Source: a virus (lineage: Duplodnaviria > Heunggongvirae > Uroviricota > Caudoviricetes). From it: a DNA stretch of 64,000 nt. Positions within the stretch are counted from its first letter, which is position 1. Every line of letters begins with the position of its first letter. The stretch lies in the IMG/VR virus record IMGVR_UViG_3300008262_000022; one strand, given 5' to 3'. Below the pieces are notes generated by a model, which made no database searches, had not been told where the DNA came from, and worked only from the letters and a program-made list of their open reading frames with translations. This document shows positions 45,339 through 53,888 of the stretch, one piece after another. Both the position numbers and the translations under genes were made by a program.

Positions 45339-45440
45339 ATGACACTGAGATATATAAATACGATTTCGTTAAGTCCGGTTGCCCAAGAGTGGGGAATGGA
45401 TAAAGGCTTCTATCGTGTTAACTGTCAGGGTCAAATGTAA
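45339..45440 (+). CDS. 33-aa leader peptide MTLRYINTISLSPVAQEWGMDKGFYRVNCQGQM
   Basis: ATG 45339 to TAA 45440 after TATATTTA; 19 of 20 amino acids; 3' end complementary to the downstream terminator. Confidence 0.7.
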   Translation: MTLRYINTISLSPVAQEWGMDKGFYRVNCQGQM

Positions 45441-45498
45441 ACGATATAAAACAAATTGCATATAACAAGAGCCCTGACTTAAAAATCAGGGCTTTTTT
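45424..45498 (+). promoter_or_regulatory. Transcription attenuator (antiterminator/terminator pair)
   Basis: Terminator agccctga(45470-77)/tcagggct(45486-93) plus a U-tract. The alternative pairing is gtcagggt(45424-31) with gccctgac(45471-78). Confidence 0.7.
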
Positions 45499-45530
45499 GT
45501 TGGCTTGGCAAAATAAAAATATTATCTTTA
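45499..45530 (+). promoter_or_regulatory. Promoter directly upstream of the tRNA array
   Basis: GTTG-N20-TATCTTTA. Confidence 0.5.
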
Positions 45531-45558
45531 CAATGTTGAAAAAAGAGATAAGAAAAAC

Positions 45559-45631
45559 GGGGTTGTAGCAAAGATGGACTATGCGCCGGTCTGAAAAACC
45601 GGAGATATTGGATCGTTACCAGTCAGCCTCA
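45559..45631 (+). tRNA. trnF: tRNA-Phe(GAA)
   Basis: ccggt-ctGAAaa-accgg; acceptor ggggttg/cagcctc; atypical T loop atcgtta. Confidence 0.8.
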
Positions 45632-45638
45632 CAAATAC

Positions 45639-45714
45639 GCAAGTGTAGTGACCAATGGTTTTAACACGTCCGGCTCCAACCCGGAAAATGTGGGTTCGAA
45701 TCCTACCACTTGTG
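45639..45714 (+). tRNA. trnW: tRNA-Trp(CCA)
   Basis: tccgg-ctCCAac-ccgga; TTCGAAT. Confidence 0.88.
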
Positions 45715-45778
45715 CAAAAAAATCGTTATAAGGCATATGCTAGTAATGCCAGCAGGTTAAGCGATATCCTGCAAATAA

Positions 45779-45851
45779 TGTGATGTAGCTCAGAGGCAGA
45801 GCAGGGAGCTGTTAACTCCAAGGTCGGTGATTTCGAAATTCCCCATCACAG
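45779..45851 (+). tRNA. trnN: tRNA-Asn(GTT)
   Basis: ggag-ctGTTaa-ctcc; tgtgatg/catcaca. Confidence 0.82.
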
Positions 45852-45904
45852 CCGGTTTGGGTTTTATACTTTTAGACTTACAAGATAAGGAAAAAGTAAT
45901 TACT

Positions 45905-45975
45905 GGGGTAGTGGCCAGGGTAGCTCACAACGACTGTAAATCGTAGGTGCGAAAGTTCGATTCTTTCCTGCCCCA
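45905..45975 (+). tRNA. trnY: tRNA-Tyr(GTA), short variable loop
   Basis: acga-ctGTAaa-tcgt; ggggtag/ctgcccc. Confidence 0.8.
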
Positions 45976-46063
45976 CAAAAATAAAAAAGATGAAACGAAA
46001 ACTATAACAGTGCATGAGTATCAAGGATATAAGTGCACAAATTAAGATTAAAATTTAATTTAT

Positions 46064-46138
46064 GCGCTTGTAGCTTAATTTGGTAGATGCACTCGGCTTT
46101 TAACCGAGGGGTTGGGGGTTCAAGTCCCTCCAGGCGCA
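46064..46138 (+). tRNA. trnK: tRNA-Lys(TTT) copy 1
   Basis: ctcgg-ctTTTaa-ccgag. Confidence 0.88.
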
Positions 46139-46146
46139 CAGAGTTT

Positions 46147-46220
46147 GACTCTGTAGCTCAATTGGTTAGAGCACCTCACTTTTAATGAGGGGGTTATGAG
46201 TTCGAGTCTCATCAGGGTCA
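46147..46220 (+). tRNA. trnK: tRNA-Lys(TTT) copy 2
   Basis: cctca-ctTTTaa-tgagg. Confidence 0.9.
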
Positions 46221-46225
46221 CAAAT

Positions 46226-46489
46226 ATGAATATAACAGGCATGACTTTAGACGGTAAGATTACTGTTGGAAATATAGGTAAATTCTATTTTCAAAAAGGA
46301 ATACCATTAAATATAATATTTGATTGTTTAATTAAAAAAGATATAGTAGTTGATTGGATTTCATTAAAAGATGAGTTAATAAACAACGGAATGTCTTTAA
46401 ATAGAATTAAACATTTATTGAGTGAAAATATTAATGACTCATACGGTAAACAATATCGCGATGATATCATTAGTAGATTAGGTCTTTGA
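46226..46489 (+). CDS. Small hypothetical protein (weak resemblance to an AlaRS helical segment)
   Basis: GKFY...GIPL..I motif; start moved to ATG 46226 because the track start lies inside tRNA-Lys. Confidence 0.5.
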   Translation: MNITGMTLDGKITVGNIGKFYFQKGIPLNIIFDCLIKKDIVVDWISLKDELINNGMSLNRIKHLLSENINDSYGKQYRDDIISRLGL

Positions 46490-46496
46490 CATATTG
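46481..46496 (+). promoter_or_regulatory. boxA-like antitermination motif
   Basis: ggtctttgacatattg; related gttctttgaa at 51281 and 52563. Confidence 0.45.
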
Positions 46497-46506
46497 TAAA
46501 TTATTT

Positions 46507-46582
46507 GGTCTCGTGGTCTAATGGCTCAGGATACATGACTGTCTATCATGGGGTGAGGGTTCGATTCCCTTCGGGACCGCCA
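46507..46582 (+). tRNA. trnD: tRNA-Asp(GTC), encoded CCA, U37
   Basis: catga-ctGTCta-tcatg; ggtctcg/cgggacc-gCCA. Confidence 0.88.
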
Positions 46583-46673
46583 AATTAACTGCAATGAGAA
46601 ATACGGGTTCGAAGCCCGGGTGGCGGGTGTAAACACGCGCTACCTGAAGCTAAGTTGCGATAGCCAGTTAATT
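46583..46673 (+). ncRNA. Circularly permuted tRNA mimic (YrlA-like architecture)
   Basis: Closing stem aattaactg/cagttaatt encloses a T-arm (cggg-ttcgaag-cccg), a closed acceptor-like hairpin (ggtggcg/cgctacc) and a D-arm-like hairpin. Confidence 0.55.
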
Positions 46674-51974: not shown

Positions 51975-51976
51975 AT

Positions 51977-52060
51977 GCTCCGATGGCGGAATAGGTAGAC
52001 GCGTGGGACTTAAAATCCCATCCCCGCAAGGGGGTACAGGTTCGATTCCTGTTCGGAGCA
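51977..52060 (+). tRNA. trnL: tRNA-Leu(TAA)
   Basis: tggga-ctTAAaa-tccca; long variable arm. Confidence 0.92.
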
Positions 52061-52285
52061 CAATGAGGAAGAGATGCTCATCAGTCTTTGGACCAAGTCT
52101 TTAATAATGGTCTCGTTCGATCCGGACAGCGGAATGCCGGTTATAGAGGATGAAAAGGATGTGGACACACTCCTCTCTATTAATGTTGATTTATATTTTT
52201 ATGTGGTAAGACACTAATGTGTTTGTTTTCAAGAAAACTAAACCGTTAAAATCTACTCATCTGGAATCTCAGGATGGGGTAATTT

Positions 52286-52358
52286 GCCCTGGTGGCGGAA
52301 AGGCAGACGCGCTGGTCTTAGGAACCAGTTTTTGAGAGTTCGAATCTCTCCCGGGGTA
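52286..52358 (+). tRNA. trnL: tRNA-Leu(TAG) lacking the long variable arm
   Basis: ctggt-ctTAGga-accag followed by only ttttt before the T arm. Confidence 0.8.
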
Positions 52359-52360
52359 CA

Positions 52361-52560
52361 AATAAACAAGAGAACTCATCGCTGGTAACAGAGGAAGTTC
52401 GCGACATCACAGCTTAAGGCAGGAGTATGAACAACATATGTTAGTACTGCCGAGGATGCAACTCAAAACAGCCTAGACGGTGAGCTGGTCTATAATGGCA
52501 AGGTTGGAGGCAAAGATAAATGATGAGATAAAACAGAATCGCGGCTAAGCTCAGTTTATT
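52361..52560 (+). ncRNA. rnpB: Minimal RNase P RNA (~200 nt)
   Basis: P1 aataaac/gtttatt, P2 ctcatc/gatgag, P3 ctg-gtaa-cag, CR-I gaggaagttcgcg, CR-IV ggaggcaaagataaat, CR-V aaacagaatcgcggcta. Confidence 0.8.
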
Positions 52561-52570
52561 AAGTTCTTTG

Positions 52571-52774
52571 AACAACTACTGATTGACACTAAACAGTAAT
52601 TATGCAGACCACGTTAAAAAAAGCGATTTTGTGGAGGCGTAAATGATAATTACCTCACAGTCTAAGATGTGAGTGGTTTAGGTTGATGTAATGATTTGAG
52701 AAAATATACTGCCCACAGATAGTAAATATGTGGTTTCAATGTTTAATTATCCTACTTAGAAGGCAGTAGTTGTT
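52571..52774 (+). ncRNA. Unassigned 204-nt structured RNA
   Basis: Perfect 11-bp closing stem aacaactactg/cagtagttgtt with internal hairpins. Confidence 0.5.
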
Positions 52775-52780
52775 TAATTT

Positions 52781-52853
52781 GGTCCTATGGTGTAATGGAT
52801 TAGCACCAACGCCTTCTAAGCGTTTAGTATAGGTTCGAATCCTATTAGGACTA
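52781..52853 (+). tRNA. trnR: tRNA-Arg(TCT)
   Basis: acgc-ctTCTaa-gcgt. Confidence 0.88.
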
Positions 52854-52856
52854 CGA

Positions 52857-52926
52857 TTGGAGGTATAGGGGTAACCCCTTGAGGCGAAGTACAAGCCATG
52901 GTCACTGAATGTAAACCAACCTCTAA
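52857..52926 (+). ncRNA. 70-nt four-way-junction RNA
   Basis: ttggaggt/acctctaa closing three hairpins; no TTC or D-loop GG. Confidence 0.4.
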
Positions 52927-52934
52927 ACGAATTT

Positions 52935-53021
52935 AGTCAGGTGGCGCAATTGGTATGACGCTGAGCGTATTTCCGAAACGGAGGGTAAAATGATGTGCAG
53001 GTTCGAATCCTGTCCTGACTA
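52935..53021 (+). ncRNA. tRNA body without a canonical anticodon loop
   Basis: agtcagg/cctgact-A, Leu-type D arm, intact T arm; middle arm ttcc-gaaac-ggag. Confidence 0.55.
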
Positions 53022-53225
53022 CAAGCCGTCTTTTTTTCTTGTCTACCGTGGATGTGGATTGTTGAGACGTAAAAAATAATAATCGATTGATGAGGAAACG
53101 GCAGGATACAGGTTCACTATACGAAGGTAGAAGTTTTTTTCAGAGTGCTGGGTTTGAGTCTTAATAATAACAAACCAACTAGATGATTAGGGACATATGA
53201 GAGCTGCTTACTCTCGTCCCAAACT

Positions 53226-53297
53226 GCTCCTGTAGGCTAATGGATAAACCTTTGCGCTACGGACGCAAGATTCCTCGTTCGAGTCGAGGCAGGAGCA
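53226..53297 (+). tRNA. trnR: tRNA-Arg(ACG)
   Basis: ttgcg-ctACGga-cgcaa. Confidence 0.88.
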
Positions 53298-53304
53298 CAA
53301 ACAT

Positions 53305-53382
53305 GGTGTCTATGTTGTTAATGGTTTAGCATACATGCTTGTGGCGCATGAGGTAACAGTTCGAATCTGTTTAGACACACCA
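53305..53382 (+). tRNA. trnH: tRNA-His(GTG) with G-1, A73 and encoded CCA
   Basis: catgc-ttGTGgc-gcatg; g-gtgtcta/tagacac-aCCA. Confidence 0.85.
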
Positions 53383-53417
53383 AAACAAATATTTATATGT
53401 AAACATAGGAGGTTATT

Positions 53418-53888
53418 ATGAATCTACAATTCAAATCTTTAGGTACCCATCAAGTAATTGATGATATTTTTGGTTACATTAAGAACTTACTTAATGAAAA
53501 ACCACAAACAAAACTTTATGTTGGTACCGACTCTCAAAACGGTCGTAGGATGACAACTTACGCTACTGTTATTGTTATGCATATGAATGAAAATGATAGT
53601 GGTAAAGGAGCTCATGTTTTATATAGTAAAGAAACATTACCTAAAATGAAGGATAGGTTCGCTAGACTATGGGGAGAAGTAGAACGTTCAGTTGAAGTGT
53701 CTAACATGTTAAGAGATGGAGGATTATCTATTAAAAATATTGACCTAGACTTCAATGAAGATCCTAAATATAATTCTAATACAGTATTACGTTCAGCAGT
53801 TGGTTATGTTGAAGCATCTGGTTTTATAGCTAGGTGGAAACCTCACAACGCTTTTAGTGTTCGTGTAGCAGATCAAATTTGTAAATAA
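53418..53888 (+). CDS. RNase H-like YkuK/DUF458 family protein
   Basis: YVGTDSQ, RLW.EV..S, DLD.N..P.Y.SN, GYV...GF....KP.A. Confidence 0.7.
   Translation: MNLQFKSLGTHQVIDDIFGYIKNLLNEKPQTKLYVGTDSQNGRRMTTYATVIVMHMNENDSGKGAHVLYSKETLPKMKDRFARLWGEVERSVEVSNMLRDGGLSIKNIDLDFNEDPKYNSNTVLRSAVGYVEASGFIARWKPHNAFSVRVADQICK

What the first reader, a model, noticed from the sequence alone, without database searches (positions are those of the whole stretch)
45339..53888. Integrated translation-rescue island
Seen co-located in 8.5 kb: the attenuator, a full tRNA set, RNase P RNA, Ro60 with seven Y-like RNAs, tRNA mimics, boxA motifs and an RNase H-like gene. Known: in Salmonella the rsr-yrlBA-rtcBA operon is induced by tRNA damage, and phage tRNAs can counter tRNA-cleaving defences. 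Inference: a sense-replace-process-decoy system against host tRNA destruction. No RtcB ligase or CCA-adding enzyme was recognised in this window.
Basis: inference. Interest (0 to 1): 0.8.

Follow-up and report, generated by a model that had tools for sequence, protein, structure and literature searches.

The report
Phage tRNA island with own processing RNAs
A 172-kb uncultured phage packs a full tRNA set, a miniature RNase P ribozyme gene, a Ro60-like protein with seven partner RNAs and a small nuclease gene into one 8.5-kb block. These parts recur together in other large phages, but that they form one anti-defence machine remains unproven.

Summary
Window 45.3-53.9 kb is a one-strand block bracketed by terminators. 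It holds about 30 tRNA genes covering all 20 amino acids and a ~200-nt minimal RNase P RNA with strong covariation. It also holds a Ro60-like gene, seven RNAs sharing the handle TAGYRA-spacer-GTTACTTCG (several fused to tRNA-like or permuted tRNA bodies) and a DUF458 RNase H-like gene.

Two items fail. The "boxA" motifs are a gene-start/promoter repeat and the 3' strand plus tail of two handle RNAs. The "attenuator" is a real 33-codon ORF plus terminator, but it is absent from eight relatives and a promoter-like site lies downstream of it.

Co-occurrence is real but nested. Ro60-like genes occur in 6-7 of 8 complete phages that carry the mini RNase P, against 1 of 18 control contigs. Only 0-1 of 34 Ro60-bearing phage records carry the RNase P. 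It appears in the largest tRNA sets (28-72 tRNA matches). One relative lacks the Ro60 cassette.

There is no RtcB or CCA enzyme. An RNA ligase, a kinase and a phosphoesterase lie about 50 kb away.

This scan has found the mini RNase P and the Ro60/handle RNAs before on other DNA. The anti-defence reading extends a published hypothesis and is untested.

The parts
45339..45441 (+).
   Evidence: Translation. At least 19 distinct residues occur in 0.3% of 33-aa windows of this genome and in 1 of 248 small ORFs. Absent from 8 relatives of the upstream gene.
45470..45500 (+). Intrinsic-terminator hairpin plus T run; its 5' arm can also pair with GUCAGGGU inside the small ORF
   Evidence: and sequence.
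45505..45534 (+). Promoter-like repeat TTGGCA-18-TACAAT (contains TATCTTTACAA); a second copy at 47722-47751 abuts the ATG of the 84-aa ORF
   Evidence: The motif is conserved in front of the homologous ORF in L252.
45559..49440 (+). First tRNA block: Phe, Trp, Asn, Tyr, Lys x2, Asp, Pro, Gly x2, Ala, Met/CAT x3, Gln, Glu, Ile, Thr, Val, Ser x2, Cys; interspersed with small ORFs and tRNA-like spacers
46757..46875 (+). Handle RNA M1 (handle at 46806-46827) enclosed by a GGGGGAG/CUCCCCC stem that ends in ACCA
47482..47627 (+). Handle RNA M2: handle, then a permuted tRNA-like body (T arm, CCUCCCA-ACCA, linker, UGGGAGG, D arm), then the closing strand CTTTTAC and tail AATTTTCTC
49526..51151 (+). 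Ro60-like (TROVE + vWA/MIDAS) protein, 541 aa
51198..51975 (+). Five handle RNAs M3-M7, with handles at 51198, 51305, 51439, 51591 and 51849. M4 is fused to a Glu-TTC tRNA-like body, M5 to a permuted tRNA with anticodon UAU, and M7 to a His-GTG tRNA. M6 carries a ~190-nt non-tRNA cargo closed by TTAATCAG/CTGATTAA.
   Evidence: The segment 49440-52060 is missing from relative G033.
51977..52359 (+). tRNA-Leu TAA, a conserved 224-nt spacer with a T-arm-like hairpin, and tRNA-Leu TAG
   Evidence: The spacer is 85% identical in G033.
52361..52560 (+). Minimal RNase P RNA. P1 AAUAAAC..GAG / CUC..GUUUAUU; P2 CUCAUC/GAUGAG; P3 CUG-GUAA-CAG; P4 AGU(U)CGCGA/UCGCGGCU; P5 CAUC/GAUG; a ~45-nt hairpin in place of the S-domain; a P15-like helix.
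52781..53377 (+). Last tRNAs: Arg-TCT, an irregular tRNA at 52935-53021, Arg-ACG and His-GTG
53418..53888 (+). DUF458/YkuK-type RNase H-like protein (156 aa), followed by a terminator at 53887-53912
   Evidence: Family background from PMC3985635.

Best explanation
The region is a phage tRNA/non-coding-RNA expression island: one co-oriented block, set off by terminators at both ends, that has accreted around a complete tRNA set. The tRNAs can decode every codon family, so phage translation depends less on the host tRNA pool.

The ~200-nt RNase P RNA lies inside the array, two bases after tRNA-Leu. It most likely adds 5'-leader-cleaving capacity for the burst of phage pre-tRNA, probably together with the host RnpA protein, since the phage encodes none.

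The Ro60-like protein and its seven handle RNAs form a separable cassette. It most likely assembles Ro60/Y-RNA-type particles whose RNAs display tRNA-like or permuted tRNA bodies. By analogy with bacterial Rsr and phage phiLo Ro60, their role would be RNA quality control or capture of a host exonuclease. DUF458 is a further recurrent nuclease of such arrays; its substrate is unknown.

Shown here: presence, structure, conservation, co-orientation and co-occurrence. Inferred: catalysis, Ro60 binding to the handles, co-transcription, and any role against tRNA-targeting defences.
For: 1. Anatomy: all features are on one strand between two terminators, with a promoter-like site at the head.
2. tRNA set: complete.
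3. RNase P family: 35 homologues share P2, the P4 pseudoknot, P5 and a P15-like helix with compensatory changes; the covariation score is 0.546 against below 0.1 for slid partners.
4. RNase P context: 29 of 33 members lie in loci with tRNAs, every tRNA on the same strand and often within 20 nt.
5. RNase P and tRNA number: it occurs only in phages with 28-72 tRNA matches, against 6-34 in Ro60-only phages, p 0.003.
6. No RnpA gene in the genome.
7. Ro60-like identity.
8. Ro60 and tRNA arrays: 44 of 80 phage Ro60 loci have at least 3 tRNAs within 10 kb, all co-oriented with the gene.
9. Handles: they occur only next to this Ro60 clade, 7 here, 4 in L003/L004 and 3 in L005. The G033 fragment, which lacks the gene, has no handle.
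10. Handle closing helices: full-spacer helices of 7-8 bp occur in 5 modules; four reach 8 bp, which 1% of shuffles match.
11. Published background: phiLo Ro60 binds Y-like RNAs and host PNPase (PMC12135203). M. smegmatis YrlA is cut by RNase P and receives CCA (PMC4201824).
Against: 2. The RNase P RNA scores below Rfam's gathering threshold and lacks the specificity domain, so activity is not assured.
3. The handles do not match Rfam YrlA, and only 3 of 7 carry a CGAA core.
4. The local AGUAA/UUACU pairing is broken in 3 of 7 copies.
5. Support for the closing helix is moderate: helices of at least 7 bp are not above shuffles.
6. Controls for co-occurrence were not matched for tRNA number, so a shared preference for large arrays may explain the linkage without any functional coupling.
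Confidence: 0.6

Rival explanations
1. The island is one integrated counter-defence system. A leader-peptide attenuator senses loss of charged tRNA, the tRNAs replace cleaved host tRNAs, RNase P and DUF458 process them, and the Ro60/handle RNAs and tRNA mimics act as decoys for tRNA-cleaving nucleases.
For: 1. The leader ORF uses 19 of 20 amino acids (0.3% of windows do), and its GUCAGGGU can pair with the terminator's 5' arm.
2. Phage tRNAs do neutralise PARIS and retron effectors (PMC11464382 and PMC11555353).
3. Salmonella rsr-yrlBA-rtcBA is induced by damaged tRNA (PMC7790460).
4. The genome carries two divergent tRNA-Lys-UUU genes.
5. It also carries an RNA ligase, a kinase and a phosphoesterase set.
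6. The parts co-occur.
Against: 1. The leader ORF and terminator are absent from all 8 relatives of the upstream gene.
2. A promoter-like site lies between the terminator and the first tRNA.
3. About one such ORF is expected per genome by chance.
4. The Ro60 cassette is dispensable in relative G033.
5. The RNase P is absent from nearly all Ro60-bearing phages.
6. The healing and sealing genes lie about 50 kb away, not in the island.
7. No RtcB, CCA-adding enzyme or TilS is present.
8. No test of decoy action was possible.
Confidence: 0.15
2. Accretion without coupling. tRNA arrays of big phages are permissive, highly transcribed sites where unrelated small RNA genes, mobile cassettes and small ORFs accumulate. 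The tRNAs serve codon-usage matching and late-gene expression, and the neighbours have independent or no roles in translation.
For: 1. The association is nested and tracks tRNA number.
2. The Ro60 cassette is an insertion or deletion relative to G033.
3. Relatives of the upstream gene carry only 1-3 tRNAs at this site, so the array grew here.
4. Four small ORFs with no family lie inside the array.
5. A T5orf172 homing-type nuclease interrupts the adjacent preQ0 genes.
Against: 1. The accreted genes are not random. They are RNA-processing or tRNA-shaped: an RNase P RNA, Ro60 with tRNA-bodied RNAs, and an RNase H-fold nuclease.
2. They recur across distant phages with different Ro60 subfamilies (17-37% identity).
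3. They show strict strand co-orientation with the tRNAs.
Confidence: 0.2
3. The RNase P-like RNA is not an enzyme. It is a regulatory or sponge RNA, for example titrating host RnpA or binding pre-tRNA, comparable to the inactive RNase P-like RNA reported from orthopoxviruses.
For: 1. The specificity domain is missing and the Rfam score is low.
2. The camelpox RNase P-like RNA showed no pre-tRNA cleavage in vitro (PMC3001073).
3. The phage encodes no RnpA.
Against: 1. All catalytic-core elements (CR-I, CR-IV, CR-V and P4 with its bulged U) are invariant or covary across 35 sequences, which argues for selection on the active site.
2. From my own knowledge, not tested here: Type T RNase P RNAs of Pyrobaculum also lack most of the S-domain yet are active.
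Confidence: 0.1

Closest known systems
Bacterial type A RNase P RNA (M1 RNA, Rfam RF00010) and the shrunken archaeal Type T form; the best Rfam hit is RF00373
   Same: CR-I GAGGAAGUUC, CR-IV AGAUAAAUG, CR-V ACAGAAUCGCGGCUA, the P4 pseudoknot with a bulged U, and P1, P2, P3, P5 and a P15-like helix. The position next to its presumed substrates also fits.
   Different: About 200 nt instead of 350-400. The specificity domain is replaced by one ~45-nt hairpin. It scores below the Rfam gathering threshold. It is encoded by a virus inside a tRNA array, and no cognate protein gene is present. I found no paper describing it.
Ro60/Rsr with Y RNAs: bacterial YrlA (PMC4201824) and Thermus phage phiLo Ro60 with Yrl1/Yrl2 (PMC12135203; PDB 9KOP, 9L5Y)
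   Same: A TROVE ring plus a vWA/MIDAS protein. The partner RNAs are encoded beside the gene and carry tRNA-like domains. Several RNAs accompany one protein. The setting is a phage.
   Different: The protein is only about 20-25% identical to phiLo Ro60. The handle is TAGYRA-spacer-GTTACTTCG with a U/C-rich tail, not the GNCGAAN0-1G stem, and there is no YrlA Rfam match. Seven copies are present. The cargoes include true-looking tRNAs and permuted tRNAs. Binding is untested.
Jumbo-phage 'tRNA provision plus RNA repair' counter-defence repertoire (Iyer et al. 2021, PMC7824862; Burroughs and Aravind 2016, cited there)
   Same: A large tRNA set, a TROVE protein, and an ATP-dependent RNA ligase with a kinase and a phosphoesterase in one phage genome.
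   Different: That survey does not mention RNase P, DUF458 or handle RNAs. Here the repair enzymes are about 50 kb from the island, and the genome is 172 kb, below the jumbo cut-off.
Salmonella rsr-yrlBA-rtcBA operon (PMC7790460)
   Same: A Ro60 homologue and tRNA-like Y RNAs in one transcription unit linked to tRNA damage.
   Different: No RtcB was found and no RtcR-type regulator is apparent (RtcA and RtcR were not searched for). tRNAs and an RNase P RNA take their place, and the context is viral.
Leader-peptide transcription attenuators (trpL, hisL type)
   Same: A short ORF, a downstream intrinsic terminator, and an alternative pairing between the ORF's 3' part and the terminator's 5' arm.
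   Different: There is no run of codons for a single amino acid. It is not conserved in relatives. A promoter-like element lies downstream of the terminator.

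Membership tests
RNase P RNA | Conserved catalytic-core sequences CR-I, CR-IV and CR-V | tested here: met
   GAGGAAGUUC, AGAUAAAUG and ACAGAAUCGCGGCUA in the window. These columns are invariant in 35 sequences.
RNase P RNA | P4 long-range helix with a bulged U | tested here: met
   Eight pairs, 99.6% of cells paired, 4 positions with compensatory changes. 24 of the sequences were collected without selecting on P4 pairing.
RNase P RNA | P2, P5 and P15-type helices of the catalytic domain | tested here: met
   P2 94%, P5 100% and the P15-like helix 93% paired, all with changes on both sides.
RNase P RNA | Specificity domain (P7-P12, CR-II/III) | tested here: not met
   Only a ~45-nt hairpin lies between the P5 strands. 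The Rfam alignment skips more than 100 model positions.
RNase P RNA | Score above the Rfam gathering threshold | tested here: not met
   35.6 bits against 84.
RNase P RNA | Cleaves the 5' leader of pre-tRNA | not testable with these tools
   Needs an in vitro assay.
Ro60 / TROVE | TROVE HEAT-repeat ring plus a C-terminal vWA domain | tested here: met
   PDB phiLo Ro60 at E 1e-11 over residues 22-510. phrog_850 at 4e-36. The top 13 Foldseek hits are all Ro60, at TM 0.42-0.48 on a model of mean pLDDT 66. The Pfam TROVE and vWA_Ro60 hits fall just below their cut-offs.
Ro60 / TROVE | MIDAS motif DxSxS...T...D | tested here: met
   D369, S371, G372, S373, T442 and D466 are invariant in 12 relatives.
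Ro60 / TROVE | Binds Y RNA | not testable with these tools
   Supported only by context: the handle RNAs occur with the gene and are absent from the G033 fragment, which lacks it.
Y RNA / YrlA (RF02553) | Match to the Rfam model | tested here: not met
   The only hit is 28 bits (gathering 69) and overlaps tRNA-Lys; no handle RNA matches.
Y RNA / YrlA (RF02553) | GNCGAAN0-1G motif in the Ro-binding stem (PMC4201824) | tested here: not met
   The handle is GUUACUUCG. CGAA follows in 3 of 7 copies, and the first G of the motif is a U.
Y RNA / YrlA (RF02553) | Encoded next to Ro60, with a stem formed by distant 5' and 3' segments enclosing a tRNA-like domain | tested here: inconclusive
   Adjacency is met. 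Closing helices of 7-8 bp occur in 5 modules, but only the 8-bp class exceeds shuffles, at 1%. tRNA-like bodies are present in M2, M4, M5 and M7.
Leader-peptide attenuator | Leader ORF, terminator and alternative antiterminator pairing | tested here: met
Leader-peptide attenuator | Conserved, and the only route of transcription into the regulated genes | tested here: not met
   Absent from 8 relatives. A promoter-like site at 45505-45534 lies downstream of the terminator.
boxA antitermination element | A conserved boxA-type sequence in the leader of a stable-RNA operon, not explained otherwise | tested here: not met
   TATCTTTACAA lies directly before ORF starts at 47752, 61692 and genome position 110,530. 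CACTTTTACAATTTTCTC pairs with the spacers of handle RNAs M2 and M4.
rsr-yrlBA-rtcBA type RNA repair operon | RtcB ligase | tested here: not met
   No PF01139 match in the complete genome.

The most novel reading that the evidence does not exclude
The phage RNase P ribozyme and the Ro60 cassette are functionally coupled. The handle-tRNA chimeras (M4, M7 and the permuted M2, M5) would be Ro60-bound precursors that the phage's own minimal RNase P cuts at the handle/acceptor junction. That would release spare tRNAs or load Ro60 with handle fragments. This would explain why almost every mini-RNase-P phage also has a Ro60-like gene.
Probability: 0.15. Interest if true: 0.85.

Novelty: new variant of a known kind. 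Interest (0 to 1): 0.62.

Why it matters
If the parts work as inferred, large phages carry their own tRNAs, a ribozyme to mature them and a Ro60-type particle built on tRNA-shaped RNAs. RNase P RNA, a hallmark of cellular life, would then also be found in viruses.

The ~200-nt natural RNase P without a specificity domain would be a compact model for the catalytic core.

The measured nesting is tRNA arrays, then Ro60, then RNase P. This gives a concrete and testable order in which phages acquire translational autonomy.

The cultured phage DLP6 offers a system to test whether any of this protects against tRNA-cleaving immunity.

Tried and rejected
1. Megablast of the island against cultured phages found only short tRNA matches.
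2. The first pattern scan for RNase P relatives was mostly chance hits; my P4 filter alone would pass about 9 by chance. I therefore used a second, more specific pattern, an HMM and a covariance model.
3. The control set first contained two true RNase P records (G043, G053), which I removed.
4. The search for related loci on the diverse Ro60 alignment failed; a narrower alignment worked.
5. The simple local-hairpin reading of the handle (AGUAA/UUACU) is weakened by mismatches in 3 of 7 copies.
6. The test of closing helices followed by a TTTC tail did not beat shuffles at 6 bp or more; only the helices of 8 bp or more did.
7. The boxA reading was rejected (see the membership tests).
8. Rnl1 (PF09511) gave no hit, but the control genomes did not ring either, so that search says nothing.
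9. The TilS search hit only QueC weakly.
11. Burroughs and Aravind 2016 is not held in the library.

Full report
GENOME AND SETTING. The window is bases 427-64,426 of a complete 171,732-bp virus record with direct terminal repeats and 31% G+C. The flagged stretch lies between replication and nucleotide-metabolism genes on both sides. Upstream are a ribonucleotide reductase, a DnaB-type helicase, an 844-aa protein with no family and a phrog_19058 protein. Downstream is a preQ0 pathway (QueC, a T5orf172 nuclease, QueD, QueE, a phosphoribosyltransferase, GTP cyclohydrolase I), then a dCTP-deaminase-like gene and a family B DNA polymerase. Every feature of the stretch is on the + strand. A terminator hairpin sits at 45470-45500 and another at 53887-53912. 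A promoter-like TTGGCA-18-TACAAT follows the first terminator.

tRNAs. ARAGORN finds 25 tRNA genes between 45559 and 53298 and none elsewhere in the genome. Rfam and a relaxed ARAGORN run add Asn-GTT (45779), a third CAT tRNA (47393), Ser-GCT (49354), an irregular one (52935) and His-GTG (53307). All 20 amino acids are covered, mostly by U34 anticodons. Only two plain tRNAs encode CCA, and the genome has no CCA-adding enzyme. T-loop-like GTTCRA motifs are concentrated here, with 24 of 30 + strand hits in the genome.

RNase P RNA. Rfam's archaeal RNase P model matches 52370-52552 end to end at 35.6 bits (gathering 84, E 2e-7), skipping the specificity domain. Two pattern scans of IMG/VR, an HMM and a covariance model gave 35 distinct homologues. 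On their alignment, a structure with P2, the P4 pseudoknot (8 bp with a bulged U), P5, a P15-like helix and inner hairpins has 84% of cells paired, against 30-40% when partners are slid. The covariation score is 0.546 against below 0.1, and no shuffle of 500 reaches it. Of 33 distinct loci, 29 contain tRNAs, every one on the strand of the RNase P-like gene and often within 20 nt. Here the gene starts two bases after tRNA-Leu-TAG.

The family is also present, unannotated, in cultured Stenotrophomonas phage DLP6 (KU682439.2, 105,768-106,023; nhmmer 1.5e-33). Three huge-phage records, LR756501-3 (two of them the same length and match), give partial blastn matches (56-73% of the query, 71-75% identity) that I did not examine further. 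The phage has no RnpA gene. I found no paper on a phage RNase P RNA. The nearest report is an inactive RNase P-like RNA of orthopoxviruses. This scan has reported the same family several times on other DNA, and one of those reports was later marked 'part of it fell'.

Ro60-LIKE PROTEIN. ORF 49526-51151 (541 aa) matches phrog_850 'RNA-binding protein' at 4e-36 and the solved Ro60 of Thermus phage phiLo at 1e-11 over residues 22-510. Its Pfam TROVE and Ro60-vWA hits fall just below threshold. A moderate AlphaFold model (mean pLDDT 66) has Ro60 structures as its top 13 matches. The MIDAS residues are invariant among 12 relatives. Relatives in cultured phages are already annotated 'Ro-like RNA binding protein'.

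HANDLE RNAs. GTTACTTCG occurs seven times on the + strand of the island and once elsewhere, on the other strand, against about one expected by chance. Each copy is preceded by TAGYRA and a 7-9-nt spacer. The same module follows the Ro60-like gene in relatives with 72% identical protein: four copies in L003/L004 and three in L005. Elsewhere in more than 200 other loci it appears only as scattered single matches. The closest relative of the RNase P region (G033, RNase P 89% identical) lacks 49440-52060, that is the gene and five modules, and its 25-kb fragment has no handle.

In five modules the whole spacer plus the next G is complementary to a downstream segment:
- M2: GTGAAAG/CTTTTAC
- M4: TGTAAAAG/CTTTTACA
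- M6: TTAATCAG/CTGATTAA
- L003: AGAGACAG/CTGTTTCT
- L005: GGGGAGTG/CACTCCCC

This segment is usually followed by A(N)UUUCUC. Four helices of at least 8 bp are reached by 1% of spacer shuffles, while shorter helices are not above chance. The enclosed cargo is a tRNA (M7 His-GTG, M4 Glu-TTC, both duplicating plain tRNAs), a permuted tRNA (M2; M5 with anticodon UAU) or a non-tRNA domain (M3, M6). The architecture is Y-RNA-like. The RNAs match neither Rfam YrlA nor the GNCGAAN0-1G motif.

ITEMS THAT DO NOT HOLD.
- 'boxA'. TATCTTTACAA recurs directly before ORF starts and is conserved before the homologous ORF in L252. CACTTTTACAATTTTCTC is the 3' strand and tail of M2 and M4.
- 'Attenuator'. The 33-codon ORF uses 19 of 20 amino acids (0.3% of windows; 1 of 248 small ORFs), and its GUCAGGGU can pair with the terminator's 5' arm. 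None of eight relatives of the upstream gene has it. They run straight into 1-3 tRNAs or the 84-aa ORF. A promoter-like site also lies downstream of the terminator.

CO-OCCURRENCE.
- Ro60 given RNase P. phrog_850 is found in 14 of 35 mini-RNase-P records and in 6-7 of 8 complete ones. Among records of at least 48 kb it is 11 of 20 against 1 of 18 control contigs, p 0.0014.
- Distance. In at least 5 of 11 records the two genes lie within one locus of at most 14 kb. DLP6 has both, 10 kb apart.
- DUF458. It is found in 9 of 35 records against 0 of 18 controls, p 0.02.
- RNase P given Ro60. The reverse does not hold. Of 80 Ro60 loci with 10-kb flanks, 44 have at least 3 tRNAs (all co-oriented), but only 3 have the RNase P and 7 have DUF458. 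Among 34 large Ro60-bearing records the covariance model finds one weak hit, and none in 7 complete genomes.
- tRNA number. Complete RNase P phages have 28-72 tRNA matches against 6-34 in Ro60-only phages, p 0.003.

The picture is therefore nested: big arrays, then Ro60, then RNase P in the biggest arrays. The controls were not matched for tRNA number.

REST OF THE GENOME. There is no RtcB, CCA-adding enzyme, RnpA or TilS. At genome positions 100.3-106.3 kb lie a calcineurin-like phosphoesterase, an AAA_33 kinase matching polynucleotide kinase families, and an RNA ligase (PF09414, phrog_968 at 2e-57). Together these form a plausible healing-and-sealing set.

READING. The island is best seen as an accreted tRNA/ncRNA expression block that makes phage translation more self-sufficient, with separable modules rather than one machine. 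The anti-defence interpretation follows a published framework for jumbo phages (PMC7824862) and experimental cases of phage tRNAs defeating tRNA nucleases. Nothing in the sequence tests it, and the sensing arm is not supported.

Noticed in passing
outside the window: genome C1 100,298-106,301 (locus L260 298-6301): A cluster of a calcineurin-like phosphoesterase, an AAA_33 polynucleotide-kinase-like protein and an RNA ligase with a PHA02142 OB domain. It is a likely RNA healing-and-sealing set, about 50 kb from the tRNA island.
   Followed up: partly
window 44439-45272 and 54134-59490: The island is flanked by a phrog_19058 protein on one side. On the other side are preQ0 genes (QueC, QueD, QueE, FolE) interrupted by a T5orf172 homing-type nuclease. 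This suggests 7-deazaguanine modification of DNA or tRNA.
   Followed up: partly
L259 (KU682439.2 105,768-106,023 and 94,038-95,435): Cultured Stenotrophomonas phage DLP6 carries an unannotated mini RNase P RNA inside its tRNA array and a Ro60-like gene 10 kb upstream. It is usable as an experimental system.
   Followed up: yes
window 47752-48006: An 84-aa ORF with no family match is conserved in six or seven of the eight relative loci, downstream of the phrog_19058 gene. In the window and in L252 its ATG follows TATCTTTA(C/A)AAC with no leader, which suggests a leaderless transcript.
   Followed up: partly
window 51439-51575 and L003 9377-9500: A permuted tRNA in the order T arm, 3' acceptor with GCCA, linker, 5' acceptor, D arm, anticodon arm. 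The anticodon is UAU here and CAU in the relative, so the scaffold is the same but the anticodon differs.
   Followed up: partly
window 52062-52285: A 224-nt spacer between the two tRNA-Leu genes is 85% identical in relative G033 and contains a T-arm-like hairpin. It may be another structured RNA.
   Followed up: no
window 46064-46221: Two adjacent tRNA-Lys-UUU genes have quite different stems. tRNA-Lys is the target of PrrC- and PARIS-type nucleases, so this may be hedging.
   Followed up: no
window 48245-48518: A 274-nt spacer holds two T-arm-like hairpins (48278, 48384) but no callable tRNA.
   Followed up: no
window 48981-49175: A 64-aa, very hydrophobic small ORF lies inside the tRNA array, just before tRNA-Cys.
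   Followed up: no
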